In this document: positions 1 through 29,700 of the stretch, piece after piece
Layout of the letters: the number at the start of each line of letters is the position of its first letter
Position numbering within the stretch: position 1 is the first letter of the stretch
Assembly (NCBI GenBank): GCA_000002445.1
Contig: CP000067.1
Coordinates: forward strand, 1,440,001 to 1,504,000
Direction of reading: 5' to 3'
DNA length: 64,000 nt
Source of the DNA: Trypanosoma brucei
Taxonomy: Eukaryota
Notes under the pieces: generated by a model
Databases searched by the model: none
Seen by the model: only the letters and a program-made list of their open reading frames with translations
What the model was told of the DNA's origin: nothing
Program-made: the position numbers and the translations under genes

Positions 1-146
1 TTCCTTTTCTTTTCCTCTTTTTTTTTTTCGGTGTGGTGGGGGGTGGGGAGGTTTATTTGACTTGACGTAACGGAGGAAAAAAAAAACAATGCGGGAACAA
101 CTTCACGTGTACTTTGTCAAAAATATTTGAGGGTACAACGACGACA

Positions 147-199
<53 letters not shown>
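147..199. repeat. (AAT)n microsatellite; further simple repeats nearby: (CAA)n around 268-285 and (TA)n around 800-830
   Basis: Uninterrupted aat triplets are directly visible in the sequence. Confidence 0.9.
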
Positions 200-205
<6 letters not shown>

Positions 206-1140: not shown

Positions 1141-1200
1141 ACAAACAAACACGCACAAACACGCACAAACACGCACAAACACGCAAACACGCACAAACGC
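1141..1200. repeat. (ACAAACACGC)n decamer tandem repeat of about 5.5 units inside a long pyrimidine/purine-tract-rich intergenic region (1-1876)
   Basis: Repeated 'acaaacacgc' units are seen directly. The flanking poly-T/poly-A and CT-rich tracts are typical of trypanosomatid intergenic and UTR sequence. Confidence 0.85.
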
Positions 1201-1876
1201 AAAAAAAAAAAAAACAGACAAATACAAAATCTGCCATGTATATTTTCTAATATCATCTTCACTTAATATAAACAAAATCAATTTTCCAAAGACGTTCTTT
1301 TCTTTATTTCAAATTCTTACTCTTTTTTTTCTTTTTCTTTTTTTTTTTGAAAAAAAAAAAATCGATCTGCTTTCGTTCTGTTCTGCATCACGGTTTGTTT
1401 GTTTGTTTGTTTTTTACGTGTCATGTACATTTTCTTTACTTCTGTAAAATTTCGCCACACCTCATGCTTTGACAAGCCAAGTTACCTCTCTTTCTCGCTC
1501 CCTTTCTTTCTGCTTCCATTCGAAACAGTTAAAAAAAACAATTCCGCAAACTGCACTTCAACAAGTTCATGTTGCCTTCCAGTTCATCCTAACACTATAA
1601 TCACCCATTCTTCTTTTTTACCGTTTCATTATCTCTTTTTTTTCTTCTTCTTTTGTTTGCTTTTTTGTGTGTTTGTGCAGAGAAGAAGAAGAAAAAACAA
1701 ACAAAAGAGATCGGTTCTACAGTGGTTTGTTACCCCCACTTCACTTCAACCGTACACCACCCAATTCAATCATTACACAAAACATCAACACTAAGGAAAA
1801 GCAAAAACAAAAACAAAAACAAGAACAAACAAAAAGAAAAAAAGGAAAAGGAAAAGGAAAAAAAAAAAGAAATTTG

Positions 1877-11141: not shown

Positions 11142-13047
11142 TCTATCAGTGCAGTTTTGTGCAGATATAGGAGTCTACCTTGCATACTGATTAAAGAGGT
11201 TACAACCGAAGTAAGAAACAGAGAAATGGACGGCACAGGACTATGACAGCGAGTCATTCCTATATACAACCTGCCAACGGGGGAGGGGCGAGTGGAAACA
11301 GCTTCGGAAAGAAGAACCAGCCGCAATGACAGCGCCATGCACATAAACATGTATACAATGTGTAACGGATATGCACCATTATCTCTAGGTGTAGATAAGG
11401 GAGAAGTTTTAATATCGGTAACTTCCTGAGGGGGGGGATAACTCCCTTCGAAAAAAGTGCAACATGTAAATTAGATACACGTGTAATAGCAAGCAAGAGT
11501 AAACGACCCTGAACTGTGGCATCAAGCACAATTCCTTGCATTTGTTCGAGCCTACAGGTGTGACAAAGAGGTGAGGAGAGTGAGGAGCTCCCCGCCTTTT
11601 GTTTTGTTTGTTACGACCCACCGGCCCTCAACATACTCCAACGTTACACTGACGTAATATTGTTTGCCTGGTTCACTAGATAACAACGTTCAGAAGGTGT
11701 AAGAGACTTGTGCGCACCCCTTGCCGCTCCCATGCTCTGCTGATTTATCTAATGATTGAAACTGAATGCCTCTTTTTAGGCAACACTTGCCGTTACGAGC
11801 CCTAATTGCAGGGCGACCATTCGGAAACCCTTACACGCGGCCGCTGCACAATTCTGTGGGTGCTAACCATGCCCTTTACTATCGTTGCTTACCTTTATCC
11901 GAATACAAGTTAAACGTCTGCAAGTAGTGAAAGGGTGAGAATCAAATTGCCTGAAGAAATGTCTGTCGACCCCTGCCAACGGGTAACTCCTCACCGATGA
12001 ATTAAAGCATTTCTTCAAATTTCCATAGAAATATAAAGGTGATAAGTGATGGAAGTTAGCGAAGAAACGAACACACACATACACACAAAACAGCCGGCTC
12101 TCATTTGCTGGGCCAACATCACAAATAAGACAAACCCCTTCCTCAGCTGAAATGCTCTACCACCGCACGCGCTTAACGATCTACGAGAGAGAGAAATGGA
12201 TGGAGAAGCAAAGAATAACAACACATGCATATAAACAGGGACATATAAACAAAAACTACTGGTAAGATACCCGCTCAACCTTTGGTCTAAAAAAATAGAC
12301 CGCAGCACGTCACCTCGGGTGTGGGTGACTTTTCCTCAGACTTGTTTGGCCCCCTCGGACAGTTAGCCTCCGGGGGTGTATGAGCAGGTGGTACGTGGAA
12401 GACGTCGTTAAAACGTTCAGTCCACAACTTTGGGTCCGAGACAACTCTGCCCTCCGCAAACGAGCTGTTTTTAGATAAAGGGGGGATGCTTGAGTTACTC
12501 GGCAGCTGCAAACTAGGGAGACTCGAACGCCTTTGTATTATTCGCTCCCCTAACGTAGTTTTCTCCGTTGCAACCTGCATTTAATCTTACCTACGTCGGT
12601 ATATGCGTTTTGCTGCTGCGACCGATATTTGTCGAAGCACACAAACACGTATGACAAGCAGTGGAGAAGTGACGGAGAAGAGGCTACGTATCTCGTTAGC
12701 GAAGTTGATAAACAATTGACAGATTAATGATGGTAGCGGCAGCCAACCTTACGGAAAGAAAGGAAGTTGTGAGGACTCATGTCCTAACGCACGTCGATAA
12801 GAAAACATAATGCGCAACTTGGCGACTTGTATGACAAAAAATATACACGAACGGTAGCTGAAACCTTTCGTGGTGGGGCACCTCGACTCCGAAGAGGTAT
12901 CTACTGATGGATTGGGAAGTTGTAAAAAAGTAAAAAAAAATGTTACTGTCGTCTCCCTTTCGTCTGTCATTGGGAAGACGATAAACTTGTGATGACTCCT
13001 AAGGTTACGCTCTTGCGGAGTCGGGCGAAAACGAAGTCCGTATAACA

Positions 13048-15567
13048 CTATTGGCAACATTTGTTGCTATTGACCTTGGTTGCAGGGGGACGCCTCAAGT
13101 TTTCATTCTCACGCCTGAGTTCGTTAATTTCCTTCTGAGCATTGGCATTGCGTTCCTCAGCTTCCCTCTCCAAATCAATATACCTTCGCCTCAACTCTTC
13201 AAGCTCCTTCTGGAGAGTTGCTATTTTCTCACGTAGCTCCTCATTTTCTGTATTGATAGCTGTGACAGTCGACCGCAACTCAGCATTTTCGTCACTGTGC
13301 TCCTGCTTCAAAGGGGTACATGCCTTTTGTTCCTCTCGCAGCGAGCTCACTTCGTGCTTTAAATTTTCTATTGTCTTGTGGCTGGCCGTAAGTTCCGCCA
13401 GAAGACTCTTCAATTCATTCTCAGTGGCTTGCTGTGACTCTTTCCACCGAGCTTCCGCTTCTCGCCGTTCTTTCACCGTCCTAGTAAGTGTATCAACTTG
13501 CCTCTGGAGTTCCTCCTCCTTCCTTTTGTCACGACTGTAAGGGTCGACTTTTTCCCTTTTTAGTGACTCAGCAAGGGAAATGGCGGCCTGCTCCTTCTTT
13601 GTGCTTTCGCTTAGACGCGAACGCAGTTGCAAAATCTCATCCTGAAGCCGACCGACCTCAGCGGCACATGCCGCCTTTGCTCCATCGACATCTTCAGCAG
13701 TGTCTGGGCTCTTCTCTTTTGTTTCACCCTTGGTTGCATCCACAGCCTTATTTTGCGACATATACTTCTTGATGTCATCCGTCTGCCGTTTGCACTTCAC
13801 CTTCAGCCGTTCACACCATTCCTTCAGAGATGAAATTTCGTTTTCGGAAGACTCTTTTAGTGCCTTTAGCTCCTTGCGGGTTTCAATCGCTTCTTGTTTG
13901 TACTTCCTCGCCTCCCACCTCAGATGCTCCATTTCCTTTCCGTCGCCGGACGCTCCTTCCGACCTCACGGTTGCTTCGGAAACCGGTTGGCGTTTCGATG
14001 CCGCAGGGGGCTGCCCTTGAGATCGGTTCTTAAGTCCTTTGTTCTCAGAGATAATGCGCTGTATTTCCAGTTGCTGCTCGGCAGATTGCCTCTGAAGTTC
14101 TTCGAACTGATCGACCAACATGTTGTATTTAACAACAAAAGAACCCAGAGCCTCTCTGTCTTGTCCCGTGTTCCCCATTTCCGACCCGGAAGCGTTCATA
14201 TCGCCTGATACGCCTTCGAAAATGCCTTCAAATTCAGGGAGCAACTCGCCTTGCGACGCGCCAGATATCCTTCTGACATTGGACGAAAGCCTCGCATTCT
14301 CATTGTACAGTTCCTGCTGTCTGTCTTTCAAATCTTTGTTCTCTTCTTCAAGTGCTCTAATTTGTTCCGTTGCCATCTTTAGTTCATCCTTTACTTTCTG
14401 CATTGTCTGATTCCTTGTCTCCCTCTGCCTTAGCGTTCGAAGTTCCGCCTCCACTTCAGCTGTCTTTCTCTGCAACTCCTCTACACTTGCTTTGTACGTG
14501 TCTGCTCGTTTGGCAAACATCCGCTTCGCCTTAGCCTCATTGTCCGCTCGTTCCGACTCCACCCGAAACCTCATCTCCGCCTCTTGTTGAGCCTGTTTGA
14601 GGCTCTTCATTTCTCCCCTCAGCGCGAGGGCATCCTCTTGCGCCCGCTGCAACTTTGTCACAATATCACTTAAACGCTCCGGCCTGGACCTCGTTGAGGT
14701 TGCGACATCAGTCACTGGAGCTGTTGTAGTGGTAGCGGAGTTATTGGCGCCGGGAGGCTCATCCCCTCGAACGTGGGTTGTGCTCCCTTTGGGAGTAAGC
14801 TTGTCTCCAGAAGTTAAATGCACGTCAGCTGCCGTCGCCAGTGCCTGGGGAAACTTCCCCACCGCTGCGGTTGACGGTTTAGTCAATGCCTTCGACCCTG
14901 CCTCCGTTCCCGCTCTTTGCGGGCCTAATAGCTTTGTCACCGATTTGATATCTGCTGAAGCCCTCATCCGGTCACCAACGGTATCCCCACTGTCCGTACA
15001 AGTTCGATTGGCTATATCTGACGCCAGTGGTCTTTGCCCCCCGCGGTGTGAAAACTCGGTGCTGCTACGGTTGTTCAGGTTTTGGCTTGTTCTCTGTCTC
15101 TGACGGGCGGCAGCCTCTTCTACCCCACGCCGAATAGCTTCCTCCGCCTCCAGTCGTTCCCTCTCAATCTCCCTGGCCTCGCGCTGCAGCAGCTCAACTA
15201 TCTGTTCATCTGTCATGTGCTTGACCACCTCGGAACGCTCTACAGAACGTAAGCGCAACCAATCATCATGTTCAGCTCTTTCCATCTTCGACCGGGCCGC
15301 GCGCTCACGTTCGATTTGCATACAACGGACGACCCGCTGCTTCCGAAATAATTCGTCAGAGGTTTGTGCCTCGTCACGAACGCTCGAGCGACAGCTCACA
15401 CGACCACTGTGGCGAGAGTTAGGGCTGCTTGCGCGATCGGAAATAACCAAGCTGTGTCTATGGGAGTAGTCTACAATCTTCATAGAGCTATCTGGAGAAA
15501 CATTCAGCTCAACTACCGTTGAAGGACTAACAGCCATGAAATCTTCGACCTCCATATTCCCCTGCAA
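13048..15567 (-). CDS. Hypothetical coiled-coil protein, 839 aa
   Basis: It is a long ORF with E/K/R/Q/L-rich heptad-like sequence (e.g. ELEELRRRYIDLEREAEERNANAQKEINELRRENENLRR) and sits in polycistron context. Confidence 0.65.
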   Translation of the reverse strand: MQGNMEVEDFMAVSPSTVVELNVSPDSSMKIVDYSHRHSLVISDRASSPNSRHSGRVSCRSSVRDEAQTSDELFRKQRVVRCMQIERERAARSKMERAEHDDWLRLRSVERSEVVKHMTDEQIVELLQREAREIERERLEAEEAIRRGVEEAAARQRQRTSQNLNNRSSTEFSHRGGQRPLASDIANRTCTDSGDTVGDRMRASADIKSVTKLLGPQRAGTEAGSKALTKPSTAAVGKFPQALATAADVHLTSGDKLTPKGSTTHVRGDEPPGANNSATTTTAPVTDVATSTRSRPERLSDIVTKLQRAQEDALALRGEMKSLKQAQQEAEMRFRVESERADNEAKAKRMFAKRADTYKASVEELQRKTAEVEAELRTLRQRETRNQTMQKVKDELKMATEQIRALEEENKDLKDRQQELYNENARLSSNVRRISGASQGELLPEFEGIFEGVSGDMNASGSEMGNTGQDREALGSFVVKYNMLVDQFEELQRQSAEQQLEIQRIISENKGLKNRSQGQPPAASKRQPVSEATVRSEGASGDGKEMEHLRWEARKYKQEAIETRKELKALKESSENEISSLKEWCERLKVKCKRQTDDIKKYMSQNKAVDATKGETKEKSPDTAEDVDGAKAACAAEVGRLQDEILQLRSRLSESTKKEQAAISLAESLKREKVDPYSRDKRKEEELQRQVDTLTRTVKERREAEARWKESQQATENELKSLLAELTASHKTIENLKHEVSSLREEQKACTPLKQEHSDENAELRSTVTAINTENEELREKIATLQKELEELRRRYIDLEREAEERNANAQKEINELRRENENLRRPPATKVNSNKCCQ

Positions 15568-16392
15568 TGTCCTCAGCCTAACCCCAGCACTCCTTTAATG
15601 TTTCAGAAACCGTTTTTATCTCTCCTCTCACTGTCGCTCACTTGGCGGTGTACAATAACTGATGTGTCGAAAAAAGAAAAGGCCACCTTAACGATACGCT
15701 TCGTGTGCTCCACTTGTGGGGTTGTACCGCTGGCCAATGGAAAAGCTCAAAAGGTGGAGAAGACACAGCTGCCTCGCAATGGCAAAAATCACGTTAGTTT
15801 TCGATACTGGAAACTCGATAGTATATCCTGTGCGCCGCCGTACAACTTCCTCCGCACTGGGAAGATCAATGCACACGCTGCAAGCTAGAATCCTCGCAAG
15901 TTGTTCTGTCTGCTTGTTATACGATAAATACTTACAAAAAGTCGAAAACGGGGAATACTGAAAGGGATCGCAGATGAGAATTGTGAAAAAAAAAAACGTA
16001 TAGGACACACTCCGAGGCAAGCGAAGACTTCTAATCTGTAAGTTCCTCAGGTGAGCGACGACAGTGAAAAAGAAGGAAAATAACGCGGCACATTTTGCAC
16101 GGCAACCCTCGAGCCCCCAAGCATCTTTTTCTTCACTACGCTGGTAAGGCTACTACAACCCGCTAGCATCGTTGAGTTATCCGTCCGCTCGTTAAGTTGC
16201 TCACACTCACAACCACATAAACAAATAAACCTTTAAATACAACACAAACCCCCAACTACAGTAGTTGCAAAACCAAGACTCACACCTTCGTTGGATGCGC
16301 TGTACGAGCCAATGTGGATGGCGCTGCACAGGGCAAGGAAAACAAAATCGGTTGAAGGCCCCTACAACTTGCAGTCGAAGCGCCTCTAAGCT

Positions 16393-18429
16393 TTAAACTG
16401 CAGCAGAGGCAATATGGGCAAGTAAAGTGCTTCCTCCGACTATGCCATCTGCATGAACGCAAAACTTCACCTCTCCGTCACATGATGCCTTCACAACATG
16501 CTCCATTTTCATCGCCTCAAGTATAAGTATTGCCTGACCCTGCCGCACAAGCGTACCATCGGCAACGAGCAGCTTTGTGACCTTCCCAGGCATAGGGCTG
16601 AGCACGGACGCGGAGCCGTTGGCCTGAGCAGAAGTACTCCCAAAGTCTGTGGCCAGAGGTTGCAGGGCCAACGTGTAGAAACCCTGCGGCAGTGCTACAG
16701 TTACCTCGCTGTCGGTGACAAATGACGTGAAACCAAACCGTGTTTCTCCGTCCACCGTAACCCTAATGAAGGTAGAAGAATCCGGCATGTTGGTCGTGCT
16801 CTCAACATAGACTGTCACAGAACTGCTGTCAAAGTCGCAGGTGAAACACATCTTTGTGGAGACAGTGACACGAACGACAACAGGGTTTCCACCCACAGTA
16901 AAGCAGACACCCTGAAATATCTGGCGGTTCGGCCAAAACAACGTAGACGCGCCTCTTTGCGAGCAGAGATACGACACAGCCGCTAGTGCCAAAACATTAT
17001 TTGGGATTTCCCTTGGTTGGAGCAAATTAACGCTGTTATCTTCAATAAACCTAGTTGTCACGCCCCCCTCGACGAAGCCGGGGTTCGAGAGGCAGCGCTG
17101 AAGAAAGTCAATATTTGTCTCCACACCCACAATGTGATAAGAAGCCAGTGCCGTCCGCCGACCCTCGAGGGCGGCGGCGCGGTTGTCACCCCACACAACC
17201 AATTTTGCGATCATAGGATCGTAGTGAACTAACACGTCGTCACCGGCACGGAAACCCGTGTCCAAGTGCACCTTTACAGTACCTCGGTTGCCTTGGGGAG
17301 GCTCTTTAAGGTAACGTAGCCGGCCACCCACGGGAAGGAACCCATTCCTCGGCGATTCGGCGTAAATACGAGCCTCGACGCTGGCTCCGCTCATAGAAAT
17401 GTCCTCCTGACGGAATCCCAGAGGAAGGCCCATTGCCGTTTGCAACTGCAGCCGCACGAGATCCAATGGCCTCCCCCTCACCTGACACACCTGCTCCGTC
17501 ACCGGGTGTTCCACCTGAAGGCGAGTATTCATCTCCATGAAGAAAAATTCGTCTTTCTCAGTGTCAAATATGAACTCCACCGTACCGGCTCCGACGTATC
17601 CGACAGCCCTTGCTGCCGTCAAAGCTACGTCGCCGATTCGACGGCGCATGTCCACGCTGAGACCTGGCGCCGGGGCCTCTTCAATAACCTTCTGGTGGCG
17701 CCTTCGGACGCTGCAATCTCTCTCAAAGAAGAAAACACCATTGTCAAAACTATCGAAAAAAATTTGGCATTCAATGTGGCGGGGGTGCATTACGTATCAT
17801 TCCAAAATAACGCGATCATCCTTAAAGAAGTTAATGGCCTCACGCTTGGCGCTCTCAAGCATGAGGTGGAACTCAGTCTCTTCCATCACAATCTTCATCC
17901 CCTTTCCGCCACCGCCGGAAACAGCCTTGATCAGGACCGGAAAGCCAATAGTTTTGGCCTCATGTAACAGCCGATCGGGGTTTTGATCTTCTCCGTAGTA
18001 GCCAGGCACGATGGGCACACCAGCCGCTTCCACGATGCGCTTGCCCTCACTCTTGGAGCCCATTGACAACATGGCGGCCGGCGGTGGTCCTACAAACTTC
18101 AGCCCCGCTGCCAAAACCGCCGGAGCGAACTCAGCGTTTTCGGAAAGAAATCCGTAACCCGGGTGGGCAACGGCAGCTTGCAGTTTTTTCGCTGCGCATA
18201 TGATGCGGTCGCCTCGCAGATAGGACGTGGACGCTGGGGGTGGGCCCAAGACGAATGCCTCATCGGCCTCCACCACGTGCTTCGCGTTGTGTTCACCCTC
18301 ACAACAAACGGCTACCGTACGGATGTTCATTTCGCGACAGGTACGGAATACTCTGCACGCAATCTCTCCATGGTTGGCGACCAGGACTTTTTTAAAGTCT
18401 CCATGGTGGAACACGTTGTATCGGAGCAT
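16393..18429 (-). CDS. 3-methylcrotonyl-CoA carboxylase alpha subunit (biotin carboxylase plus biotinyl domain), interrupted by an in-frame TGA at 17797-17799. This is either a pseudogene or a sequence error.
   Basis: ORFs 17797-18612 and 16393-17790 are in the same frame (…DDRVILE*YVMHPRHIE…). The N-terminal part has KKVLVANRGEIACRV and the ATP-grasp motifs. The stop falls where other biotin carboxylases have Lys (human LIEKFVDTPRH), and ERDCSVRRRHQKVIEEAPAPG follows. The C-terminus has the biotinyl motif EAMKME. The probable start is the Met at 18429 (MLRYNVFHHGDFKK). Confidence 0.85.
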
Positions 18430-18620
18430 CCCCAGAAGAGTGATAACGACCAGAACAAGTGAATGCAATGTGGGGGATAGAAAAAAGTACAGAACAGCAC
18501 ACGAAGAGAACCCCCCTTGAGCCCAACTATCCCGATGATGCTTCAAGCGGAGTGGTTCACACCACTCGTCTTGTTGCAGAAGTTGGCTGTTTCCTTCCTC
18601 GGCCACATTCATTTCACTCC

Positions 18621-19774
18621 TTACTTAGGCAATTGAGAGAACGCGCTCTCTGTATGCGCATGGTCTTCCCCATCGATAATTGGAAGAACAGCCAAAAAAT
18701 GCTCAGCATCCCTTAGATCTCTCGCGAGTATGGCCGCCCGCTTCGCTAGCGCGTCCTGTTCCACCTCTCTCAAGAGGCGAGGAACGTTACCGCGGTGGTA
18801 CTTCTTCCCGTAAAAGGCCCGGCAGAGCGCCGACGCCTCCTCCACACCACATCGCGCCCGATCACCCCGCCACTCAAATGGATCAACAGGGAGCAGGCCA
18901 TCGCCCAACACGCTCACTTTTACATCGCGGGCAGAGTCTTTTATTGCTGGTGTGGTGGCTGGAACGATCAAGACGCGGGAGGACTTGCTGGTACTGCTCC
19001 CTAGCACCTCTTGGATAGCTGGATGTAGTGCTATAGAGTGGAGATCTTGAATTTCCCTCCGGGCTTTTCTAATGAGCCTCCATGTAATGGCATTATCAGC
19101 ATGCCACATGTGAATTACCAACCCTGATCCCACAACGATTACTACATCAGCTGCTCCAAAGATTCTTTCCGTGGTCTGCCTTCCCCCCGGGGAGACGCCT
19201 GTCTCTTCGTCAAATAACACCGCCAGCCGGTCGGGATCGTCCGCAATCACGAGCGAGGCAAGTGAGGTTCCTTTAGCGGTCGTGATGATGGCCTCAGCCT
19301 CTGTTTCAAGGCCATACATCTTCTGCAAGCTCCAAGCCCCACTTCCATCACCTGTCTCAAATGCATCAAAAGCTTCCGTCTCCCAACTGATGTCACCACC
19401 GAACCGTAAGTACTCGGTGCGCAGTGTGCGCTGCAGTGCACCCTCCGCGCAATGGTACACCGACTCACCATCTGCACAACCAGGAAAATACTGCCTTCCC
19501 TAATCGTCTCCAAGTCTGGCCCAACAAAACGCCAACCTTTAGCCTTTTGAAGAATCCTCTCGACCTTGGCATTAGTGCAGCCGAGGTCCCTTAGGAGTTT
19601 CAGTGTTTGGCTTGTAATCACGCAACGTCTCCTGTTGTTGAGCTCATGGCTGAGATCAAGCCGTTTCTCGACTAACTGGACATTAAACTCCCTCCACCGC
19701 ATGCCTATCCCCATCGCATACGCGCCTACACCGCTGCCAACGAGCAGGACCTTACCCCACGGTTTCACAGCGTA
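18621..19774 (-). CDS. FAD/NAD(P)-binding Rossmann-fold oxidoreductase (putative monooxygenase-like), apparently frameshifted near 19495
   Basis: ORF 19247-19966 contains MYAVKPWGKVLLVGSGVGAYAMGIGMRWREFNVQLVEKR, a GxGxxG beta-alpha-beta fold. It ends 3' of the point where the overlapping ORF 18621-19460 opens in a different frame. The upstream frame of that ORF reads GRQYFPGCADGES-VYHC… with no ATG; its annotated 'M' is GTG. Together the two give a single ~384-aa protein. The product assignment beyond the Rossmann fold is uncertain. Confidence 0.5.
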
Positions 19775-20069
19775 CATCACTACCCGTAACGACAAAAAGA
19801 ACGAAAGGGACAACACATAAGCACGCGCACATATATGCACATACATGAACATTATCAAGCGGAATTGGGCAACAGGAAGTATTTGCGCCACCTCGTTTCG
19901 GAAAAGGATACACGACAACAACACAATTATCCTGCCATCCCCAAGTCTCCCATTTCCACAAGGCAAAACGAATGCTCAGAAAGAAATTTAAAGCAAAAGA
20001 AACATCTCCCAGCCAGCTACCACCGCACAGCCTGCATCATCTGCCATAGCAATTTCCACAGCTCCTCTA

Positions 20070-20429
20070 TCAAGATCTGATCTCTTGCACGACAATCAAA
20101 ACATACTGCTTGTCTACGTCTGGTGCTATCAGTATTTCGGTCAACCCGAGACCCATACGAAGGAAGGTTAGGTCATCCTTCCAGTCAATAGTACGGATGG
20201 TGGAGGCTGCCAACGCTGTGAAGCCATTTATTTTATCTGCATACTTTTTGACTTTCCGTTCATCTGATGAAAAACCTGAATACCTCATAACTCGCCCATC
20301 TGCAGGGTTCAGCACAAGATATCCAACAACACCCTCATGCTTGGCGATGCGGAGCAGTACTTCCTCCACAGATTTGATTCGCCGCTCACGCTCGTTGGTA
20401 GTTGATGCGTTAAATTCCATTCGCTTCAC
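20070..20429 (-). CDS. Dynein light chain roadblock-type (Roadblock/LC7)
   Basis: The 119-aa ORF aligns with DYNLRB1: EEVLLRIAKHEGVVGYLVLNPADG, and DLTFLRMGLGLTEILIAPDVDKQYVLIVVQE matches [29 protein letters not shown]. An alternative start is the Met at 20420. Confidence 0.85.
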   Translation of the reverse strand: MKRMEFNASTTNERERRIKSVEEVLLRIAKHEGVVGYLVLNPADGRVMRYSGFSSDERKVKKYADKINGFTALAASTIRTIDWKDDLTFLRMGLGLTEILIAPDVDKQYVLIVVQEIRS

Positions 20430-20754
20430 AGCACCACTACTTTCCAGCTAAAGCAACAACAACAACAATTACTTTAAAAAAAAAAAGAAAGCGCTTGTGC
20501 AGAAGATAGAAGTTAGTAGCACACGGGTAAGCACACAGGCCACAATTGCAAGGCCCTAGTGGGGCAAATTTTTCTGATGACGTTAGTTCACTGATAGTAT
20601 ATGCTCTAAAATACATGAACCACCGTGTCACGAAATGGAGCGCAACTCTCTAGTTTCCAACTTGCTACATAATACTTCCTTCTGCCACTTGTCCGAATAA
20701 CGCCGACTTCTGCCTCACTTGCCCCCCCTCGCCAGTGTCAGCAGGGCACCGCCA

Positions 20755-23700
20755 TCATCTGGCGGTCCTCCTCGTAACAACAGCAAATGAGGGAAATGTG
20801 GCCTCACGCAAGCGATCTACCTCGTTTTTAAGGCGAACAAGTTCCTCTTGCTGGCAGCGAGCCAACTCCTCAAGTTCACTATTCTCGTATAGTTCCCTCA
20901 TCCTCTCACGGAGACGATCTTTATCATTGTTGTGTTCCCCAAGCATACCCCATACAGCTTTCTTATCCTCAACGCTGTTTGTCAGAGCTTGGACTTGGTT
21001 GTTCAGGTACTGGTTCTCCGCGCGTCTGTCGTTAATTTGCATTTTTAGCTTTGATATGACCCGGTTACGCTCCTCAACCTTCTTTGACATGACACTTCGA
21101 ACAGCCTCGATTCGTGCATCCATCTTGTTTATTTCCCTTTCGAGAGACGTTACAGCGCCGGTATGGATGGTCTCCTGCATCTGCCGAGTCACTCTTAATG
21201 TGTGCAACTGCCGTAATTCCATTTCTAGCGTTCCAATGCAGTATAACAGACGTTCTGTTTCCCAAGAGCATGTTTTCATAGACTGCCGAAGTTGTGATGA
21301 ACGACTCATAAGGGATCGTATTTCGTCAAAGCTAGCGAAGATAAGGTCGTTGTAATCTGTAATGTTCTTCACCCATCGAATGGAGAAGTCGGTGAAATCA
21401 TCGCTCACCATAGCGTTCTCATCCTGCACCTGTCCTTGCTGCAGCGTGTATAAGTTTTGTATGTCGAGTACCTTCTCTATGACTTCTTTTCTACATGCCT
21501 CCTCGGCCTTTTCCTTGTCGTCAAGTGCAAACTGTGCCTTCTTTTTTTCCGTCTCAACCTCCACCACTTCATCATTGAGTGCGTCTGCTTCGCCTCTAAG
21601 GTGAATTATTTTATCCCTTGCCTCCACGACTGCCCTACAGCACTGGCAGTACTGTTCCCATAGTGGAATAGGAACCACACCCGAGCGAGTGGGTTCCGGG
21701 ACCTTAGCTAGGCCATCCTCGTACTTGGAACGCCAAGTCGTGAAGCGCCTGTTCAGTCTCTCTCCCCAATCCGGATCTGTGAATGGGGGCAAACAGCGCA
21801 TGTCCGTAATCATGTTCTTTTCTTCTTCAATGCAGTCCTGCACCCTCGCCTCCGAGGCCAAATACAATTTCAGGCGGTACTCGTAAAGACTATCCAATTG
21901 CCTCAACCGGCACAGAAGGTCCTCCTCCTCTCGCTTGACACCCAGAAACTTATTGCGGATCGTTTTCTTGAGTAGAAACAGACACAGCGCATTCACCTGG
22001 TGTAGCTCCAGCTCGTCCACGAGTTGAGCGACTAGCATACGGTCAGTTCTTAGCACGTCAATCTCATCATCTATTGCTTTCGCAGAAGTCATGTTAGCTT
22101 TCACCAATGCTGCAACTTCCCCTCGCAGTAACTCTTTCTTCTCATTGATCAACACAGTTTGTTCTGCAACCTCTTTTTCATACTCCTCAAATATTCTCTG
22201 TTGCTCATCACTCCGCTCTTCAGGCGGTACATATTGCTCGAGTGAGTTGTCAGCGAATGGGGGAATCGGCACGTTGACGCGAAGAACCTCGGTGACTTTC
22301 TCGAGGCCATCCATCCAGGTCTTTAAAGCAGCTTCATCGGAAGGGGAAACTACAAGCTCCCCATCGTCACTTTTGACGGCTAGTTTGAGGAGTTCAGGGT
22401 CAATCTCAGAGTCAAAAACCTCAAAGACAGTTTGGGGGTCTTCCTCTATATCAAAAACAGGAGTGAATAAAACATTTGGTGGACACGTGTGCTCTCCCAG
22501 CTGCTGCATGATGCGAACGCAACGTCCGTTCCTTTCCGCAATGAGATTCAGCTCTCGGCTCTTGCGCTCCCGCAAGGTGTCAAACCGGATGTTGAATGAC
22601 TTTTTTTCGTGAAGAATTTTACATTCTAGCAAAATCAACTGTATGGTCGCGCGAGGGCCGGTGTAGACGTCCAAAGTGTCATAAAGCAATTCGTCTACAT
22701 CACTGGGGGGCCCGCAAACCTGCTGCTCCGTGCATAAGTTCCCCTCCTTAGCCCTTTTAACTAGTGATGACAACGTAAAGCACTCCTCAGTCTTTATCTG
22801 TATAGCCCTCATCAGTTTGATTTTTTTCTGTATTTTTGCTCGTTGGGCACAAGGTTTTCGCAGATGGAAGTTGTGAACTTCCGTTTCGGGATCTGTCATG
22901 CTCACGATTTTCGAGCGTTGCACCTCCATGACGTCCCAACATTCAGTTTTGATCGTGTGTTGCACGAACTCATTGTGAACCAGGCTGTAGTAGTCATCCT
23001 CCCTTGCCTTGTGGATCTCCATCTCACATTCCTCGTTAAACGCTTGTCGTTGTTCAGGCAAAAGGAAGTCTTCTGCGCGCACAGTTGGGGTCCTTTCCTG
23101 GAGCAGCTTCTCTACTTCCATCCTCAGGTCGGCCAGAGCCGATATTATACGGCAGCGCGACCGTTCTGCTGAAAGTGTTTCAGCATCACTTGGAGAACTT
23201 GCACGACTCGGTGATGTTGAGATAGCTCTTTGGTGCCAGAAGGGTTCACTCCATGAATAGTGGATAGGTGATTTCCCAACGGGAACTAAATGAACAACAC
23301 TATCGTTTCCTCCACAGACAAACCCTCCGGCAGCATTCCACACCGAGAGGCACGTAATACCGCCCCTACCAAATGGTCGTAACAAAAATTCCTTAAGTGG
23401 GTGTTTCTTTTCTTTCGTCGGTGGCACAGGAGGTAATTTCATCAAGTAGTGTGAGATATCCCTTACAACTACTCTGCCATCTCCTCCTGCGGAAATGATG
23501 CTATCCCCTCCAAGACGCTGCAGCACATTGCCACCGCATTCATGATCACGCATAAGGAAGTAAGGCCTCAGGGGCTTACTCTCCTTTACTCGCTGCCGCT
23601 CCAGGGCGTACATCTTGGTGTCTTTGTCCACCGAGTGGACGAAGATGTTGATCACATCGCCGTCACCGTAGAGAGGCAGAAAGTCGTTAACCGGGAAGTC

Positions 23701-25137
23701 CAAGCGCCAAGTCATATCAACAGTCACGCCAGCTGACGCGGAATCACACTTCCCAGTGAAGCGTAAGTTGTGCACCTCGCCATTGTTACATGCTGCCAGC
23801 ACCGATCGCCCACCATTCACTGCCCATCGCAAGTTAGTCACGGCACAAGCGAATATATCCGAGGAGGCTGCGGTTTCAAGAAGTCCATCTGCCACCTCAA
23901 TGAAATGGACTACATTTTTGTCACATACAGCTAAGAGTGAAACTCCGTCAGATGTGCAAGCGGTCAAGGGACAGTCACTTACCTTCATCTGGGAAACAAC
24001 ACTAACGGTATTTTCCACTGTGAAGGAACGGACGAACCCGCTGTCATATACGACTACCGCTACGGAGCCCACGACGCACGCATCTACAACTTTCTCGGGA
24101 AATCTGACAGGGGTGTGCCCTGCTGTATTCGTGTCCTGATCATAAGTAACGAGACTCCCATCTAAACACACTATCACGACGAGACCTCCCAACACCAGAA
24201 GCTTCACAGTGTCGGAGGCGCTCCGGCGTCGAACAAAAACAGACTGCGCGGTGTCCACAGAAATTTTTGTTACATCGGTACTGGTTGCAACTAAAACATC
24301 ATTTACGTCTGGTAACGTCAGTAAACGAACTACCGAACGACCTAATCTCACAAGCAGCCGTTGTGCCTTCTGATCAATATTGTAAGTAAACACATCACCA
24401 CACTCCGTTCCAATGAATAAAAGAGTCCCGTTTTGCAGTAGAGCAGTAACATTGTGAGGTGTTTCGCAGTTTATATAATTCTTCATATCTGTTCTCAGCT
24501 CGTCCAAGAGAACTACCTGCCCCCTACCAGCACCGCAGTACAGACCCTCAGTGCCCCATACGCAAGAGTGAAAATAGTGTCCCTTCGAACTCAATGTGAG
24601 AATACTTGGTACAAATGTGGCCGAATCCATGTTGCACGCAATTCGAACACCGTGTGGTTCCAAAACGGCTATACAGTCATGCCGATGCAACGGAAACGTT
24701 AAGTGCTTGCAGAAGACACCGCCTAGCTCGGTCGAGGCACATTTCACCAATCTGTTGCCGCGAGCGGCTGAATAAAAAGTAACACAAGTTGTTGGTATAC
24801 ATGTTAGAAGGGCTAACATTTCTCCATCACTCGAGAATAACATGTGCTGCACATCCACGGTCGCAACATTATCAATACACTGCAGGTGGTGACGTTCTGG
24901 AAATCGGAAAACGTGCAGCGACACATCCAGCTTCACCTCAGTTACGCACAGCAAACCTGCAGAGGGTGAAAACGCCAGCGCACCGATCGCGTAGCGGCCT
25001 TCACAAGGGATCCACTGGGACGACTCTTCCTTGCGTCGGATAACGATGCCACCCCCCGCTCCTAGGAGAAAGTCGTCACCCGCAGCGACGAGAGCAGAGG
25101 GAGAGTTGAACCCTAGAATGCGCGCGTTGGTTGCCAT
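20755..25137 (-). CDS. Large WD40-repeat plus C-terminal coiled-coil protein, 1460 aa; architecture of cilia/flagella-associated protein 43/44 (CFAP43-like)
   Basis: The N-terminal ~700 aa carry repeated beta-propeller-like blocks. The C-terminal ~750 aa are heptad-rich coiled coil. In T. brucei the CFAP43 orthologue is reported next to an NRK kinase, and this ORF is next to one here. The orthologue assignment is from memory and is not verified. Confidence 0.65.
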   Translation of the reverse strand: MATNARILGFNSPSALVAAGDDFLLGAGGGIVIRRKEESSQWIPCEGRYAIGALAFSPSAGLLCVTEVKLDVSLHVFRFPERHHLQCIDNVATVDVQHMLFSSDGEMLALLTCIPTTCVTFYSAARGNRLVKCASTELGGVFCKHLTFPLHRHDCIAVLEPHGVRIACNMDSATFVPSILTLSSKGHYFHSCVWGTEGLYCGAGRGQVVLLDELRTDMKNYINCETPHNVTALLQNGTLLFIGTECGDVFTYNIDQKAQRLLVRLGRSVVRLLTLPDVNDVLVATSTDVTKISVDTAQSVFVRRRSASDTVKLLVLGGLVVIVCLDGSLVTYDQDTNTAGHTPVRFPEKVVDACVVGSVAVVVYDSGFVRSFTVENTVSVVSQMKVSDCPLTACTSDGVSLLAVCDKNVVHFIEVADGLLETAASSDIFACAVTNLRWAVNGGRSVLAACNNGEVHNLRFTGKCDSASAGVTVDMTWRLDFPVNDFLPLYGDGDVINIFVHSVDKDTKMYALERQRVKESKPLRPYFLMRDHECGGNVLQRLGGDSIISAGGDGRVVVRDISHYLMKLPPVPPTKEKKHPLKEFLLRPFGRGGITCLSVWNAAGGFVCGGNDSVVHLVPVGKSPIHYSWSEPFWHQRAISTSPSRASSPSDAETLSAERSRCRIISALADLRMEVEKLLQERTPTVRAEDFLLPEQRQAFNEECEMEIHKAREDDYYSLVHNEFVQHTIKTECWDVMEVQRSKIVSMTDPETEVHNFHLRKPCAQRAKIQKKIKLMRAIQIKTEECFTLSSLVKRAKEGNLCTEQQVCGPPSDVDELLYDTLDVYTGPRATIQLILLECKILHEKKSFNIRFDTLRERKSRELNLIAERNGRCVRIMQQLGEHTCPPNVLFTPVFDIEEDPQTVFEVFDSEIDPELLKLAVKSDDGELVVSPSDEAALKTWMDGLEKVTEVLRVNVPIPPFADNSLEQYVPPEERSDEQQRIFEEYEKEVAEQTVLINEKKELLRGEVAALVKANMTSAKAIDDEIDVLRTDRMLVAQLVDELELHQVNALCLFLLKKTIRNKFLGVKREEEDLLCRLRQLDSLYEYRLKLYLASEARVQDCIEEEKNMITDMRCLPPFTDPDWGERLNRRFTTWRSKYEDGLAKVPEPTRSGVVPIPLWEQYCQCCRAVVEARDKIIHLRGEADALNDEVVEVETEKKKAQFALDDKEKAEEACRKEVIEKVLDIQNLYTLQQGQVQDENAMVSDDFTDFSIRWVKNITDYNDLIFASFDEIRSLMSRSSQLRQSMKTCSWETERLLYCIGTLEMELRQLHTLRVTRQMQETIHTGAVTSLEREINKMDARIEAVRSVMSKKVEERNRVISKLKMQINDRRAENQYLNNQVQALTNSVEDKKAVWGMLGEHNNDKDRLRERMRELYENSELEELARCQQEELVRLKNEVDRLREATFPSFAVVTRRTAR

Positions 25138-25472
25138 CTAATATAAAAGTACACTGCGTAATAATACCCTATAATGTTTGGCACGGAGCGCGCGGATGGA
25201 GCAACAACGAAAGTTTATGAACCGAACAGGGAGTGACGCCACCAAAAACAGTTTTCTTTTGGGCTCGTATATAGCCCAAGCTGCCACAAAAGCAACACAG
25301 AGTGTTGATACCGGACACACATACGCGCAAACAAACAAGCAAAAAAAGCAAACGAACAACTATAGATTACCCCCGCACTCCCATGTCTCTTCTAATAATT
25401 GAAAGAATAAAAATATGTATTCACAGCAATAAAAAAATAATTAAAACAATCGTTAAGCAAGCGAAAGCACGT

Positions 25473-26768
25473 TTAGGCGACACCTATACCACGTTGAATC
25501 GCGTGAACCCACATTTCCATGTCCCCATGTGATACAGCCTGAAACCACATACCCTTTCCGCCGACCGTATTGAGGGCAAACACAAAATCTCTCTTTGCAG
25601 TACTGTGAGGCACCGGGCAAGCACCCTGCACTTGTTCAAGGTTTAGGCCTTTTGGATTATTTCCTTCTTCATCATCTGTTAGAATGAGCTGTCCGCGAAC
25701 AATCTGCAAAACCCTCGGTTTCCACGACTTCCCGTTTCCACCACCCAGTTTGTTTACATGTCCCCGGTGTGTAACGTCGTAGTTAATTTGTGATTCCAGG
25801 AAACGATGTGCATCAGGGCTCACTTCCGAGGATAAGATTTCGCTGACCTGTGATACGAGGACCTCCTTCACCGAGTCCAAAATTCGTTCGTTTTTCTTCA
25901 GTGCTTGCACAAATAGTTTAAGGCCCTTATTGATGTAAGGTATCTGGAAATTTTCCCTTACACTTGGTCTGTCATTAGGGTCCGCTACAAGGATACCATC
26001 AACAACATGCTTAAATCCGGACAAGAAGCTATCCGGCAAGGGAGCATATGTGCCAGCAAGAACCTTCGACATCAAACCTTTCAAATTACTTGCTGAAAAC
26101 GGTTTCTTCATGCCCATAATTTCGTACAATAAAACACCCAACGACCACACATCAGCCTTCTTATTGTACCTTTTATTATTCCACAGCTCTGGTGCCAGGT
26201 AGTACGGTGTGCCACAGAACGTACTTGCAACGACGCGTGATACGGTGTCTTCATATTGATGACTGAATCCAAAGTCTCCCAGTTTAACTAGTCCTGTAGA
26301 TGTGAGCAGCACATTGGCAGATTTGATATCGCGGTGCAGCATCTTATGGCTGTGGATGTAGTCAAGGGCAAGACACAGTTGTAAGAAGAGAAACAAGGCC
26401 TCGTGTTCTTGAAAGTAGCGCGCATCTCCTGTGCCCCGAAGCTTTATTTGCTCATCAAGGTTGCCTGAGTCAGCGAATTCCATGACAATAAGCAACCGAT
26501 CATTTTCCTCGTGGTCCTCAATGTAACGAATAATGTTTGGATGATTACAGTTGGCCAGACACTTGATTTCGCTCTGCGCGTACCGCTTATCCCGCTGAGA
26601 CATCTTGCTTAAACCCATGACTTTTGCTACACAAAGAGACCCATCCTCCACGCTCTCCGCTACATATGCTTCACCATAGGAACCCAATCCTACAATCCCT
26701 TTGTTCAGGTATTTACACCGACCACCGCTGCCGTCGGTTCCAAGGATCGTCGAGAACGGTTCGGCCAT
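25473..26768 (-). CDS. NEK-family (NRK-type) serine/threonine protein kinase with a C-terminal PH domain; paralogue of 1877-3199
   Basis: The 431-aa ORF has GLGSYGEAYVA, VAK, HRDIKSANVLL, DFGFS and GTPYYLAPE. The C-terminal region is PH-like (…DFVFALNTVGGKGMWFQAVSHGDMEMWVHAIQ). Confidence 0.9.
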   Translation of the reverse strand: MAEPFSTILGTDGSGGRCKYLNKGIVGLGSYGEAYVAESVEDGSLCVAKVMGLSKMSQRDKRYAQSEIKCLANCNHPNIIRYIEDHEENDRLLIVMEFADSGNLDEQIKLRGTGDARYFQEHEALFLFLQLCLALDYIHSHKMLHRDIKSANVLLTSTGLVKLGDFGFSHQYEDTVSRVVASTFCGTPYYLAPELWNNKRYNKKADVWSLGVLLYEIMGMKKPFSASNLKGLMSKVLAGTYAPLPDSFLSGFKHVVDGILVADPNDRPSVRENFQIPYINKGLKLFVQALKKNERILDSVKEVLVSQVSEILSSEVSPDAHRFLESQINYDVTHRGHVNKLGGGNGKSWKPRVLQIVRGQLILTDDEEGNNPKGLNLEQVQGACPVPHSTAKRDFVFALNTVGGKGMWFQAVSHGDMEMWVHAIQRGIGVA

Positions 26769-29700
26769 CGAAACTCTACATAATGATGGCCGCTGACGGT
26801 GGACTGAGCGCCCAAGGGTTGGTTACCACAGGGAAATTGCAAGCAGCAACCACAATCCACTTTGGAAGAACGCGCCGAACAACACACAAACCCCCAAAAC
26901 GACTGCTGTGTCCACAGGAAAATTTCACCCACAACAAGCACTGAGGATGTTTTGTACTACGAAGGTTACGGATCTGGGACGCGCAACACAAACAAATCAA
27001 TACTATACATCTGGCTGAACCTCTAAAGTTTGTCAGGCGTCCGTAACGGATTTAGTTACACACAATTGGGCCTTCAGCCAACCATTTCGGTCACCTGTCA
27101 AAAACTGGAGCGAGAAAGTTAACAAGGGCAACCACATGCTACTCAATTGATAGCTACCACTTGTGAGTGGGGGAAGTCTTCTCAGTGGAACTGATGAAGG
27201 CTTAACACCAAATAACATGCGAGAGACATTGAAAGGATTCACACTACACGGCAAAATAAAGCGTGAGTGGGTTGGTCGGAGTTGCGCCCGCGTTCAGGTA
27301 GTAGTGGGTCGTTTTTCGTTATTTAACCTTGCCATATGTTCTTAGCAAATGACTCGGTACCACCTCATAAATAAATGCGTAAATAGCAACCGCCACCTTT
27401 CAGGAAATTTTGGAGAAGGGCAAACAAGTAGGTGTAGAACTTCGACATATTGAAGCTCGATAACCCCCCTGAGATTCACCTCAGTACCTACCTTACCCTC
27501 TTTTAACAATTTATGTCAAAAGGTCGTAGCAGAGATATTCAATAAACGTAGATAATGGCATTTCTCTGTACAAATACACAACCAACAAGCTGTCATTAAA
27601 GATCCTTTACACCATAAAAGTTAATCATTTTTAGTTGTCTAATTGATAAAAATATATATATTGTAAATCTCAATAAGCATAAAACCACCTACAGGTGCCA
27701 GCGCTCTGTGTGGCGTACGTACTTGGGGGAAATGTCACTCGTAACTGCATATGTACATTTATGCATCAAACAAGCACGTTGCAATTCACCAAACGCCAGG
27801 CCCAGCCAAGCCCTTGAGTCAGAACACATGGTGGCAAAAGCAAAACCTCAATCCCTTATAGATACATAACAGCATACATTACTGCTCAAAGTACTTAAAT
27901 TATTGCCGCGAACGAAATTCAGCCAGTTCGAGAGGGGAAGGAAAAGAAACGTGCGCACCAGCAACGGTACTTTAAGTACTTCCTCATGACGGACCGTGGA
28001 CCGCAACCCGACAATAGATAATCTTACCGATATATGGTGTCGAAGGACCTGCTAACAGACCAACTTAGCCACCGCACAAACACGACAACCGCAAATTAAG
28101 AGGGGGACCAATATGCGTTAGCGACATGCCTATTGAAATGCCATCAACAGGAAGAGCAAAATATCTTTCCACGAGAGTGTTCTCACGCAACTATCAATGG
28201 CACGGCATTGAGAGAAATGTTTAAAAACTGGACACATGCACAGTTCGACTCAGACGTATATCGCAGAACGCAGTATCTTCAAATATGAGTCATCACTTAA
28301 ACTCATAGAGCAACAAAAACAGTTAAGTAAATAAACCTCCTTGTACACGTTGATAAAACCTTTTGTTGGTGAATGGTAACCCACCAAATGCACAGAATGC
28401 ATGCAAAGCGAACTTCAAGCGCAACAAAATATGTACAAGTACAGTTATCAAACACAACTGGCACTCTTTCGACAGTTATTAACGATGGACCACCACGCTG
28501 ACGGACAGCAATGACACGGCTCACGGAAGTGTTTTCTCACACCGCTTCGCACCGTGAAGGGCGGTCTGCCAAACGCTCGCCGCGGCAGAGACGCGAAAAG
28601 GGACCGCTCTAACAACCACCCCAGTCCGGTGCACGCCGCCTCCCTCCTGACACTTGACATAGCTAGCAGGTGACATGCTCAGAAGAAGTGACGTGTAACG
28701 GACCCTTTCACCCCTTTCTGTCGACGAGCTTGAGCTCCCAGCGTTAGCTCACAGTGACGGAAGAAGCTGTTGGGGTGCCTTCACATCAATAGTAGCAATT
28801 CTTTCTCGTAAAAAAAAAACGTCCGTTAAGCCAGAGCGCCTCTCGAATTCGAAGCGACACTGGTTGGCTTCAATCCATCACGTTACCCTCCTCCGTATCA
28901 CCCGCGTTGGTATGTTCTTCCACGAGGCTGCCATTTTTTAAAAGTATGCGTAGAAAGAGGCTTGTAGTAAATTCAGATTTCACCACAGACCTGTTGGAGG
29001 CAAAATACACCAGCAGCAAACGGGCAACCGAGTTCCCCATTGAAGAACGGGACAATTGACACATAGGCGCAAGACAGGAATCACGCGCCTCCTCAAGGGA
29101 GGCCGCCGCACCGCCGAGTAGGTAAGCACTCGCGGCGGCGTTGCAAGAATCTGATGCCGCTTGGACACGGCAGTTGCCTTCATGATTAGCGTGAGGGGAC
29201 GCCCAGTGGCGAAATGACTGCAGTTGCCGCCGCCGCAGTTTTCGTTGCGTTAGTCCCCACGTCACCCAGCCACGGTGTTGCAGGTCGCCCTCGACTCGAT
29301 TTTGCAGTGTAGTCGAAACAACCGCGCTCCGAGGTGTTTGACGCACCCACCAACTTTCCTAACCAGGGAGTCTGCACCTGCGAGCCTGACTTGCAGCTAT
29401 CTCTGCTATCCTCAGCCGCGCGTTGCCTTTATAGTGATTGGACCGCTATCTAGGAAAGAAGCGCTCCGTCATGCGCGGCAAGCTCCGTCCCCGCTCACGA
29501 TTTGGACCAATAAATCCCACAACCGAGTGTGCTCTAACGGTCCGCTGGATCATCATGTCCAGGAGAATCGGGGGAGGACTCTCCGTGTTTGTTACGGTGT
29601 AGCGCCGTTGCCTGTCCGACGGGGCTCGGCATCTGCCTCTCCCCTCCCACTGTAGAAAACGTTGTGCTTATTAGCCGAGCGCGCAACAGCGGCTTGAGGC

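What the first reader, a model, noticed from the sequence alone, without database searches (positions are those of the whole stretch)
17788..17802. In-frame TGA inside 3-methylcrotonyl-CoA carboxylase alpha
The biotin carboxylase reading frame is continuous across 17797-17799. There the plus strand reads 'tca', which is TGA on the coding strand (…DDRVILE*YVMHPRHIECQIF…). The stop replaces the residue that is Lys in human MCCC1 (LIEKFVDTPRH) and E. coli AccC. A single-base change from AGA, CGA or TGG would create it. Either this isolate carries an MCC-alpha pseudogene, which would matter for leucine catabolism, or this is a base-call error. MCC alpha is not a known trypanosome selenoprotein.
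Basis: seen in the sequence. Interest (0 to 1): 0.5.

Follow-up and report, generated by a model that had tools for sequence, protein, structure and literature searches.

The report
Known MCC-alpha pseudogene, duplicated copy
The in-frame stop codon is real, but it sits in a redundant, decaying duplicate of the 3-methylcrotonyl-CoA carboxylase alpha gene on Trypanosoma brucei chromosome 4 (Tb927.4.5350), which was described as a pseudogene in 2007, while the intact working copy lies on chromosome 8.

Summary
The TGA is real. It lies on the minus strand at window 17799-17797, as codon 211 of an otherwise open 678-codon MCC-alpha frame (16393-18429). The window is T. brucei brucei TREU927 chromosome 4, inside the known chr4/chr8 segmental duplication. 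The gene is the chr4 paralog Tb927.4.5350. The intact paralog Tb927.8.6970 (XP_847527, 678 aa) is on chr8, and it is the sequence deposited for the endogenous MCC holoenzyme structure (PDB 8RTH).

It is not a base-call error. The same CGA(Arg)>TGA change, with linked chr4-specific substitutions, is present in the independently assembled chr4 copies of T. b. gambiense DAL972 and T. b. equiperdum. Both chr8 copies keep CGA.

The chr4 copies evolve neutrally (23 nonsynonymous : 8 synonymous changes). The chr8 copies are constrained (3:8). The TREU927 copy has also lost invariant catalytic-domain residues (R20H, S129G, Q242R). No SECIS element was found, and no homolog has Cys at this column.

Jackson 2007 (BMC Genomics 8:432) already reported "apparent pseudogenisation" and rate asymmetry for this gene pair. 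So the pseudogene reading is right. The suggested consequence for leucine catabolism and the base-call-error alternative are not supported. This is ordinary and already known.

The parts
16393..18429 (-). MCC-alpha pseudogene (Tb927.4.5350 equivalent). It has 678 codons plus the terminal stop and no indels relative to the functional chr8 paralog.
   Evidence: It is 98.5-98.7% nt identical to the chr8 copies. Neither half exists as an annotated protein in the collection. Jackson 2007 names the pair Tb927.4.5350 / Tb927.8.6970.
17797..17799 (-). Premature stop codon TGA (codon 211), derived from CGA (Arg).
   Evidence: TGA is in TREU927, gambiense and equiperdum chr4 copies. CGA is in the gambiense and equiperdum chr8 copies. 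R211 is in the TREU927 chr8 protein P0122 and in PDB 8RTH_A.
17800..18429 (-). Codons 1-210, upstream of the stop: the BC N-terminal domain and the first part of the ATP-grasp domain. It carries the TREU927-private changes R20H, D86A/A87V/V88A, S103P and S129G, the changes P47H and L53V shared with the equiperdum chr4 copy, and the chr4-fixed change M133V.
   Evidence: Chr4-lineage changes here are 12 nonsynonymous: 5 synonymous.
16393..17796 (-). Codons 212-678, downstream of the stop: the rest of the ATP-grasp domain, the BC C-terminal domain, the BT region and the BCCP domain. The AMKM biotinylation motif is still intact (K641, about 16507-16509). It includes the mechanical 465-aa ORF that starts at M214 (16393-17790).
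   Evidence: Chr4-lineage changes here are 11 nonsynonymous: 3 synonymous, which shows no residual constraint. Q242R hits the invariant CSVQRR motif and is fixed in all chr4 copies.
18621..19966 (-). Upstream neighbour (Tb927.4.5360 equivalent, paralog of Tb927.8.6960). In this window it is split into two overlapping ORFs by a TREU927-private 1-bp deletion near 19489.
   Evidence: The other four copies read through to 410-412 aa, while the window copy stops at codon 202.
11419..26788 (.). The part of the chr4 duplicon in this window that is alignable to chr8. Identity is 98.7% over 16006-26788 and 87-96% in blocks down to 11419. It ends at the NrkA gene, next to the strand-switch and VSG region.
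   Evidence: Jackson 2007 places the duplicon boundary at NrkA, Tb927.4.5390 / Tb927.8.6930.

Best explanation
The TGA is a genuine, inherited nonsense mutation (CGA Arg211 > TGA) in the chromosome 4 copy of MCC-alpha (Tb927.4.5350). That copy arose in the T. brucei-specific ~0.5 Mb chr4/chr8 segmental duplication. MCC function is supplied by the intact chr8 paralog (Tb927.8.6970), so the chr4 copy is redundant. It lost function before the T. brucei subspecies diverged and has drifted neutrally since. It is an unprocessed, non-functionalised duplicate pseudogene. Shown here: the location, the paralogy, the sharing of the stop across three genomes, the neutral substitution pattern, and the intact chr8 paralog. 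Inferred: that no functional protein is made from the chr4 copy, and that loss was tolerated or favoured because of redundancy or dosage.
For: (1) Window ORFs match TREU927 chr4 proteins exactly (Tb927.4.5310.5330.5440, CFAP43, NrkA, VSGs). The intact 678-aa MCC-alpha XP_847527 is on the 2.48-Mb chr8 record. (2) The window is syntenic with chr8 loci of gambiense and equiperdum at ~98.7% over 10.8 kb, with sharp ends. (3) TGA at codon 211 is in all three chr4 copies (TREU927, DAL972, equiperdum) and CGA is in both chr8 copies. Linked chr4-fixed changes are a synonymous change in codon 210, M133V, Q242R and a synonymous change in codon 248. (4) No gene is called at this position in gambiense chr4 or in the equiperdum chr4-type locus, and the window's two half-ORFs are not in the protein collection. 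(5) Chr4-lineage substitutions are 23 N: 8 S, no different from the neutral expectation (p=0.83). Chr8-lineage substitutions are 3 N: 8 S (p=0.0008 against neutral). Fisher's test between the two gives p=0.01. pN/pS is 0.13 for chr8 vs chr8 and 0.6-1.1 for chr4 vs chr4. (6) The window copy has replaced invariant residues: R20H in ANRGEIA, S129G in KSESK and Q242R in CSVQRR. (7) PDB 8RTH chain A, the endogenous T. brucei MCC alpha, has the chr8-type sequence. (8) Jackson 2007 reports significant rate asymmetry (P=0.005) and 'apparent psuedogenisation of one paralog' for Tb927.4.5350 / Tb927.8.6970.
Against: After what must be a long period, the copy has no indels and only one stop, and its 3' UTR is ~98% conserved (Jackson 2007 Table 5). 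For a dead gene this is tidy. It may reflect a young pseudogene, or sequence exchange with chr8: only 15 sites are fixed between chr4 and chr8 and 61 sites show mixed patterns over 10.8 kb. Transcription and translation status were not tested. TREU927 chr8 DNA could not be retrieved, so the within-genome comparison rests on the chr8 protein and on chr8 DNA from two other subspecies.
Confidence: 0.95

Rival explanations
1. The stop is a base-call or assembly error in the TREU927 sequence, and the real codon is a sense codon.
For: The TREU927 copy has about 14 private nucleotide changes in this gene, including a 5-nt cluster in codons 86-88. The neighbouring gene has a private 1-bp deletion. So local sequence quality could be questioned.
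Against: The TGA itself is not private. It is in gambiense DAL972 chr4 and in the equiperdum chr4-type copy. Those copies differ from the window at 27-28 other positions in this gene, so they are independent sequences. The stop is also flanked by chr4-specific linked substitutions.
Confidence: 0.01
2. This isolate has lost its only MCC-alpha gene, which impairs leucine catabolism.
For: None beyond the stop codon itself.
Against: The same genome encodes an intact 678-aa paralog on chr8 (P0122/XP_847527). That paralog is under purifying selection, and it is the sequence deposited for the endogenous holoenzyme structure.
Confidence: 0.01
3. The UGA is recoded, either as selenocysteine or by programmed read-through, so a full-length protein is made from the chr4 copy.
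For: The frame stays open and free of indels for 467 codons after the stop in three genomes.
Against: A permissive Rfam scan (E<=10) of 15000-19000, which covers the 3' UTR, found no SECIS match. No homolog has Cys at this column: it is R, K, H or Q. Substitutions downstream of the stop are 11 N: 3 S, a neutral pattern. Invariant catalytic-domain residues are replaced.
Confidence: 0.015
4. A truncated product is still functional. This could be the 465-aa downstream ORF from M214, which keeps the BCCP domain and the AMKM biotinylation motif, acting as a biotin-carrier or regulatory subunit.
For: The BCCP domain and K641 motif are intact. An ATG lies 3 codons after the stop.
Against: The downstream part shows a neutral N:S pattern (11:3). 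It has strain-private radical changes (R237G, R394C, N416I, L424R, S505F, V645F). Trypanosome mRNAs are normally translated from the first AUGs after the spliced leader, so internal initiation 640 nt downstream is unlikely (established knowledge, not tested here).
Confidence: 0.025

Closest known systems
Tb927.4.5350, the chr4 paralog of MCC-alpha in the T. brucei chr4/chr8 duplicons (Jackson 2007, BMC Genomics 8:432, PMC2212663)
   Same: It is the same locus. The neighbours match exactly (Tb927.4.5330, CFAP43/Tb927.4.5380, NrkA/Tb927.4.5390). CDS identity to the chr8 paralog is about the same (0.983 reported; 0.985-0.987 measured here against the gambiense and equiperdum chr8 copies). The rate asymmetry and the pseudogenisation match too.
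   Different: Nothing substantive differs. This analysis adds that the stop is CGA>TGA at codon 211, that it is shared by gambiense and equiperdum chr4 copies, and that the substitution pattern is neutral on both sides of the stop.
Tb927.8.6970, the functional T. brucei MCC-alpha (XP_847527; PDB 8RTH chain A)
   Same: It is 678 aa with identical domain architecture, about 97% aa identity and no indels.
   Different: The chr8 copy has R211 (no stop) and keeps R20, S129, M133 and Q242. It evolves under purifying selection (pN/pS 0.13).
The dihydrolipoamide dehydrogenase pair Tb927.4.5050 / Tb927.8.7380 in the same duplicon
   Same: Jackson 2007 reports it as the second case where rate asymmetry coincides with pseudogenisation of one duplicate. 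This is interpreted as restoring the original gene dosage.
   Different: It is a different gene, and it was not examined here.

Membership tests
Unprocessed (duplicated) pseudogene | Clear homology and conserved synteny with a functional parent or paralog | tested here: met
   98.5-98.7% nt identity to the chr8 MCC-alpha copies within a 10.8-kb syntenic block.
Unprocessed (duplicated) pseudogene | A disabling lesion in the reading frame that is real, not an artefact | tested here: met
   TGA at codon 211 in three independent assemblies of the chr4 copy.
Unprocessed (duplicated) pseudogene | Relaxed selective constraint compared with the functional copy | tested here: met
   Chr4 lineage 23 N: 8 S (neutral, p=0.83) against chr8 lineage 3 N: 8 S (p=0.0008). 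Fisher p=0.01. Invariant residues are replaced.
Unprocessed (duplicated) pseudogene | An intact functional paralog is present in the same genome | tested here: met
   P0122/XP_847527 on TREU927 chr8. PDB 8RTH_A has the chr8-type sequence.
Unprocessed (duplicated) pseudogene | No functional protein product | not testable with these tools
   This needs paralog-specific proteomics or ribosome profiling.
Functional biotin-dependent carboxylase alpha subunit (MCC-alpha) | BC-N, ATP-grasp, BC-C and BCCP domain architecture | tested here: met
   Pfam PF00289, PF02786, PF02785 and PF00364 on the joined translation.
Functional biotin-dependent carboxylase alpha subunit (MCC-alpha) | An uninterrupted ORF with the invariant BC-domain motifs intact (ANRGEIA, KSESK, CSVQRRHQK) | tested here: not met
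   Stop at codon 211, plus R20H, S129G and Q242R in columns that are otherwise invariant.
Eukaryotic selenoprotein (UGA = Sec) | A SECIS element in the 3' UTR | tested here: not met
   No SECIS-family hit at E<=10 in window 15000-19000.
Eukaryotic selenoprotein (UGA = Sec) | Cys or Sec at the homologous column in relatives | tested here: not met
   The column is R (66), K (54), H (1) or Q (1) and never C.
T. brucei chr4/chr8 partial duplicons | Colinear paralogous gene order that ends at NrkA next to a strand switch | tested here: met
   Window order: 835-aa gene, MCC, 410-aa gene, Robl/LC7, CFAP43, NrkA. This equals the chr8 order in L001 and L002. Homology ends at 26788. Jackson 2007 describes the same boundary.

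The most novel reading that the evidence does not exclude
The chr4 pseudogene may not be simply dead. It has stayed full length and indel-free, with a single stop, across three subspecies. The 10.8-kb block also shows few fixed chr4/chr8 differences (15) and many mixed site patterns (61), and TREU927 chr4 is closer to chr8 copies (98.65%) than to gambiense chr4 (98.18%). This could mean ongoing inter-chromosomal gene conversion between the pseudogene and the functional MCC-alpha gene, which Jackson 2007 saw no evidence for. For example, D229 is shared by all chr4 copies and by gambiense chr8, but not by equiperdum or TREU927 chr8. The pseudogene would then act as a donor of variation, possibly deleterious, to the working gene. 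Alternatively, a BCCP-bearing fragment could still be expressed.
Probability: 0.1. Interest if true: 0.3.

Novelty: already known. Interest (0 to 1): 0.07.

Why it matters
It matters little. The finding is a correct spot of a premature stop, but it falls in a redundant duplicate that the literature already calls a pseudogene. T. brucei keeps an intact, constrained MCC-alpha on chromosome 8, so leucine catabolism is not affected. The practical value is for annotation and read mapping. Tb927.4.5350 should stay flagged as a pseudogene. RNA-seq, RNAi or proteomic work on MCC-alpha should take account of a 98.5%-identical non-coding paralog.

Tried and rejected
(1) I tried to fetch TREU927 chr8 DNA by exact-protein look-up of P0122 and of the chr8 CFAP43 (P0126). 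Neither is on record, so I used gambiense and equiperdum chr8 DNA plus the TREU927 chr8 protein. (2) Selenocysteine: a permissive Rfam scan of the gene and its 3' UTR found no SECIS, only two sub-threshold snoRNA-like chance hits, so I rejected it. (3) Base-call error: rejected because the stop is shared by three assemblies. (4) My first idea was that the 97% identity to T. b. equiperdum meant a divergent strain or a noisy sequence. I rejected this once exact matches showed the window is the TREU927 chr4 paralogous block. (5) Residual constraint on the 465-aa downstream ORF: the N:S ratio of 11:3 is neutral, so I rejected it. (6) The 431-aa ORF at 61472-62767 is the same length as NrkA, so I suspected a further NrkA copy. 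It is unrelated: only 33 of 432 positions are identical in an ungapped comparison.

Full report
Observation. On the minus strand the sequence reads ...GTT ATT TTG GAA TGA TAC GTA ATG CAC CCC CGC CAC..., which translates as VILE*YVMHPRH. The TGA is at window 17799-17797. Translating 16390-18720(-) gives one continuous frame whose only internal stop is this codon. The mechanical ORF list splits the frame into 17797-18612 and 16393-17790. Joined across the stop, and starting at MLRYNV (18429), the 678-residue product has the full MCC-alpha architecture: Biotin_carb_N, CPSase_L_D2/ATP-grasp, Biotin_carb_C and Biotin_lipoyl.

Where the window comes from. A homology search found full-length trypanosomatid MCC-alpha proteins. 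The best hit, T. b. equiperdum, was only 97% identical. Its 90% cluster also holds the T. b. brucei TREU927 protein XP_847527 (678 aa, on a 2,481,190-bp record) and the gambiense protein. Exact-sequence look-ups of ten window ORFs showed that the window is TREU927 chromosome 4 (a 1,590,432-bp record). The matches include Tb927.4.5310, Tb927.4.5330, CFAP43 (XP_844684), NrkA (XP_844685), VSGs and Tb927.4.5440. Neither half of the MCC frame exists as an annotated protein. So the window holds a second copy of MCC-alpha, distinct from the intact chr8 gene.

Paralogy. The chr8 loci of equiperdum (L001) and gambiense (L002) align to window 16006-26788 at ~98.65% identity. Further blocks down to 11419 align at 87-96%, and nothing aligns beyond those ends. 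Gene order is the same on both chromosomes: NrkA, CFAP43, Robl/LC7, a ~410-aa gene, MCC-alpha, an ~835-aa gene. This is the chr4/chr8 partial duplication described by Jackson 2007 (PMC2212663). That paper puts the duplicon boundary at NrkA (Tb927.4.5390 / Tb927.8.6930) and lists MCC as pair 5, Tb927.4.5350 / Tb927.8.6970. It gives a CDS identity of 0.983, a significant relative-rate asymmetry (P=0.005) and 'apparent psuedogenisation of one paralog'.

Is the stop real? I retrieved the chr4 loci of gambiense DAL972 (L003) and the chr4-type locus of equiperdum (L005). In both, no gene is called where MCC should be. All five MCC copies align without indels. Codon 211 is TGA in all three chr4 copies and CGA (Arg) in both chr8 copies. 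The TREU927 chr8 protein and PDB 8RTH_A also have R211. The stop is linked to four other chr4-fixed changes: GAG>GAA in codon 210, M133V, Q242R and a synonymous change in codon 248. The other chr4 copies differ from the window at 27-28 positions in this gene, so they are independent sequences. A base-call error is excluded. The mutation is a single C>T change that predates the divergence of these T. brucei lineages.

Selection regime. Nei-Gojobori pN/pS is 0.13 between the two chr8 copies and 0.61-1.09 among the chr4 copies. I also counted changes restricted to one paralog. The chr4 lineage, including the fixed differences, has 23 nonsynonymous and 8 synonymous changes. That is no different from the neutral expectation of 76% nonsynonymous (p=0.83). 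The chr8 lineage has 3 nonsynonymous and 8 synonymous changes, a significant departure from neutral (p=0.0008). Fisher's test between the two lineages gives p=0.01. The pattern is neutral both upstream (12:5) and downstream (11:3) of the stop, so the 465-codon downstream ORF shows no residual constraint. The window copy has replaced residues that are invariant across kinetoplastids and diplonemids. These are R20H in ANRGEIA, S129G in KSESK and Q242R in CSVQRRHQK. It also carries a 5-nt cluster that rewrites codons 86-88.

The functional copy. An endogenous MCC holoenzyme was purified from T. brucei lysate and solved at 2.5 A (bioRxiv 10.1101/2023.11.27.568864). The deposited alpha chain (8RTH_A, 678 aa) has the chr8-type sequence at every diagnostic site. 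Leucine catabolism therefore does not depend on the chr4 copy.

Recoding. A permissive Rfam scan (E<=10) of 15000-19000, which covers the 3' UTR, found no SECIS-family match. Homologs have R, K, H or Q at this column and never Cys. The downstream sequence drifts neutrally. Selenocysteine insertion or programmed read-through is not supported.

Comparison with what is known, and novelty. This is the same locus already described as a pseudogenised duplicate (Jackson 2007). This analysis adds four small details. The exact lesion is CGA>TGA at codon 211. It is shared by three subspecies. The substitution pattern is neutral on both sides of the stop. The adjacent Tb927.4.5360 equivalent has a TREU927-private frameshift. 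The finding is already known and of low interest.

Residual oddity. Over the 10.8-kb block only 15 sites are fixed between chr4 and chr8, while 61 sites show mixed patterns. TREU927 chr4 is slightly closer to the chr8 copies (98.65%) than to gambiense chr4 (98.18%). This hints at sequence exchange between the duplicons, which Jackson 2007 saw no evidence for. I did not test it formally.

Limits. TREU927 chr8 DNA could not be fetched. Expression and translation of the chr4 copy cannot be tested with these tools. I inferred the TriTrypDB annotation status only from the absence of a protein record and from the 2007 paper.

Noticed in passing
window 18621-19966 (-), deletion near 19489: The gene just upstream of the MCC pseudogene (Tb927.4.5360 equivalent, paralog of Tb927.8.6960) carries a 1-bp deletion private to TREU927 chr4. 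This truncates it at codon 202. The gambiense and equiperdum chr4 copies and both chr8 copies read through to 410-412 aa. It is either a second, strain-specific pseudogenisation or a sequencing error.
   Followed up: partly
window 18000-20000: TREU927-chr4-private substitutions are concentrated here: 23 of the 43 in the 10.8-kb block. The region covers the 5' half of the MCC pseudogene and the frameshifted neighbour. It includes a 5-nt cluster that rewrites MCC codons 86-88 (18166-18173), GAC GCC GTG > GCC GTT GCC.
   Followed up: partly
window 16006-26788 vs L001, L002, L003, L005: Only 15 sites are fixed between the chr4 and chr8 copies, and 61 sites have mixed patterns. TREU927 chr4 is closer to the chr8 copies (98.65%) than to gambiense chr4 (98.18%). 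MCC D229 is shared by all chr4 copies and by gambiense chr8, but not by equiperdum or TREU927 chr8. This suggests inter-chromosomal gene conversion or old shared polymorphism.
   Followed up: partly
window 36878-47132 (+): This is a tandemly repeated VSG-type array. A ~4.05-kb segment is repeated at an offset of 2747 bp with 97.9% identity (37878-41925 vs 40625-44672). More diverged copies (88-93%) flank it. This produces paired ORFs of 509, 540, 540 and 509 aa. One matches the TREU927 'VSG, atypical' XP_844686.
   Followed up: partly
window 61472-62767 (-): A 431-aa ORF with no exact match in the protein collection. It has the same length as NrkA but is unrelated to it: 33 of 432 positions are identical in an ungapped comparison. 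It lies in the VSG-rich subtelomeric part of the window and is probably an unannotated or pseudogenic VSG-type gene.
   Followed up: partly
window 18430-18612 (-): The MCC frame stays open for 61 codons upstream of the MLRYNV start (MNVAEEGNSQ...). The gambiense chr8 gene is annotated with this extension (739 aa), while TREU927 and equiperdum are annotated at 678 aa. The PDB chain also starts at MLRYNV. The gambiense start is probably an annotation inconsistency.
   Followed up: no
window 1-2000 and 58000-62000: G+C content is low here (0.33-0.36), against about 0.45-0.53 in the duplicon part of the window. I did not examine this.
   Followed up: no
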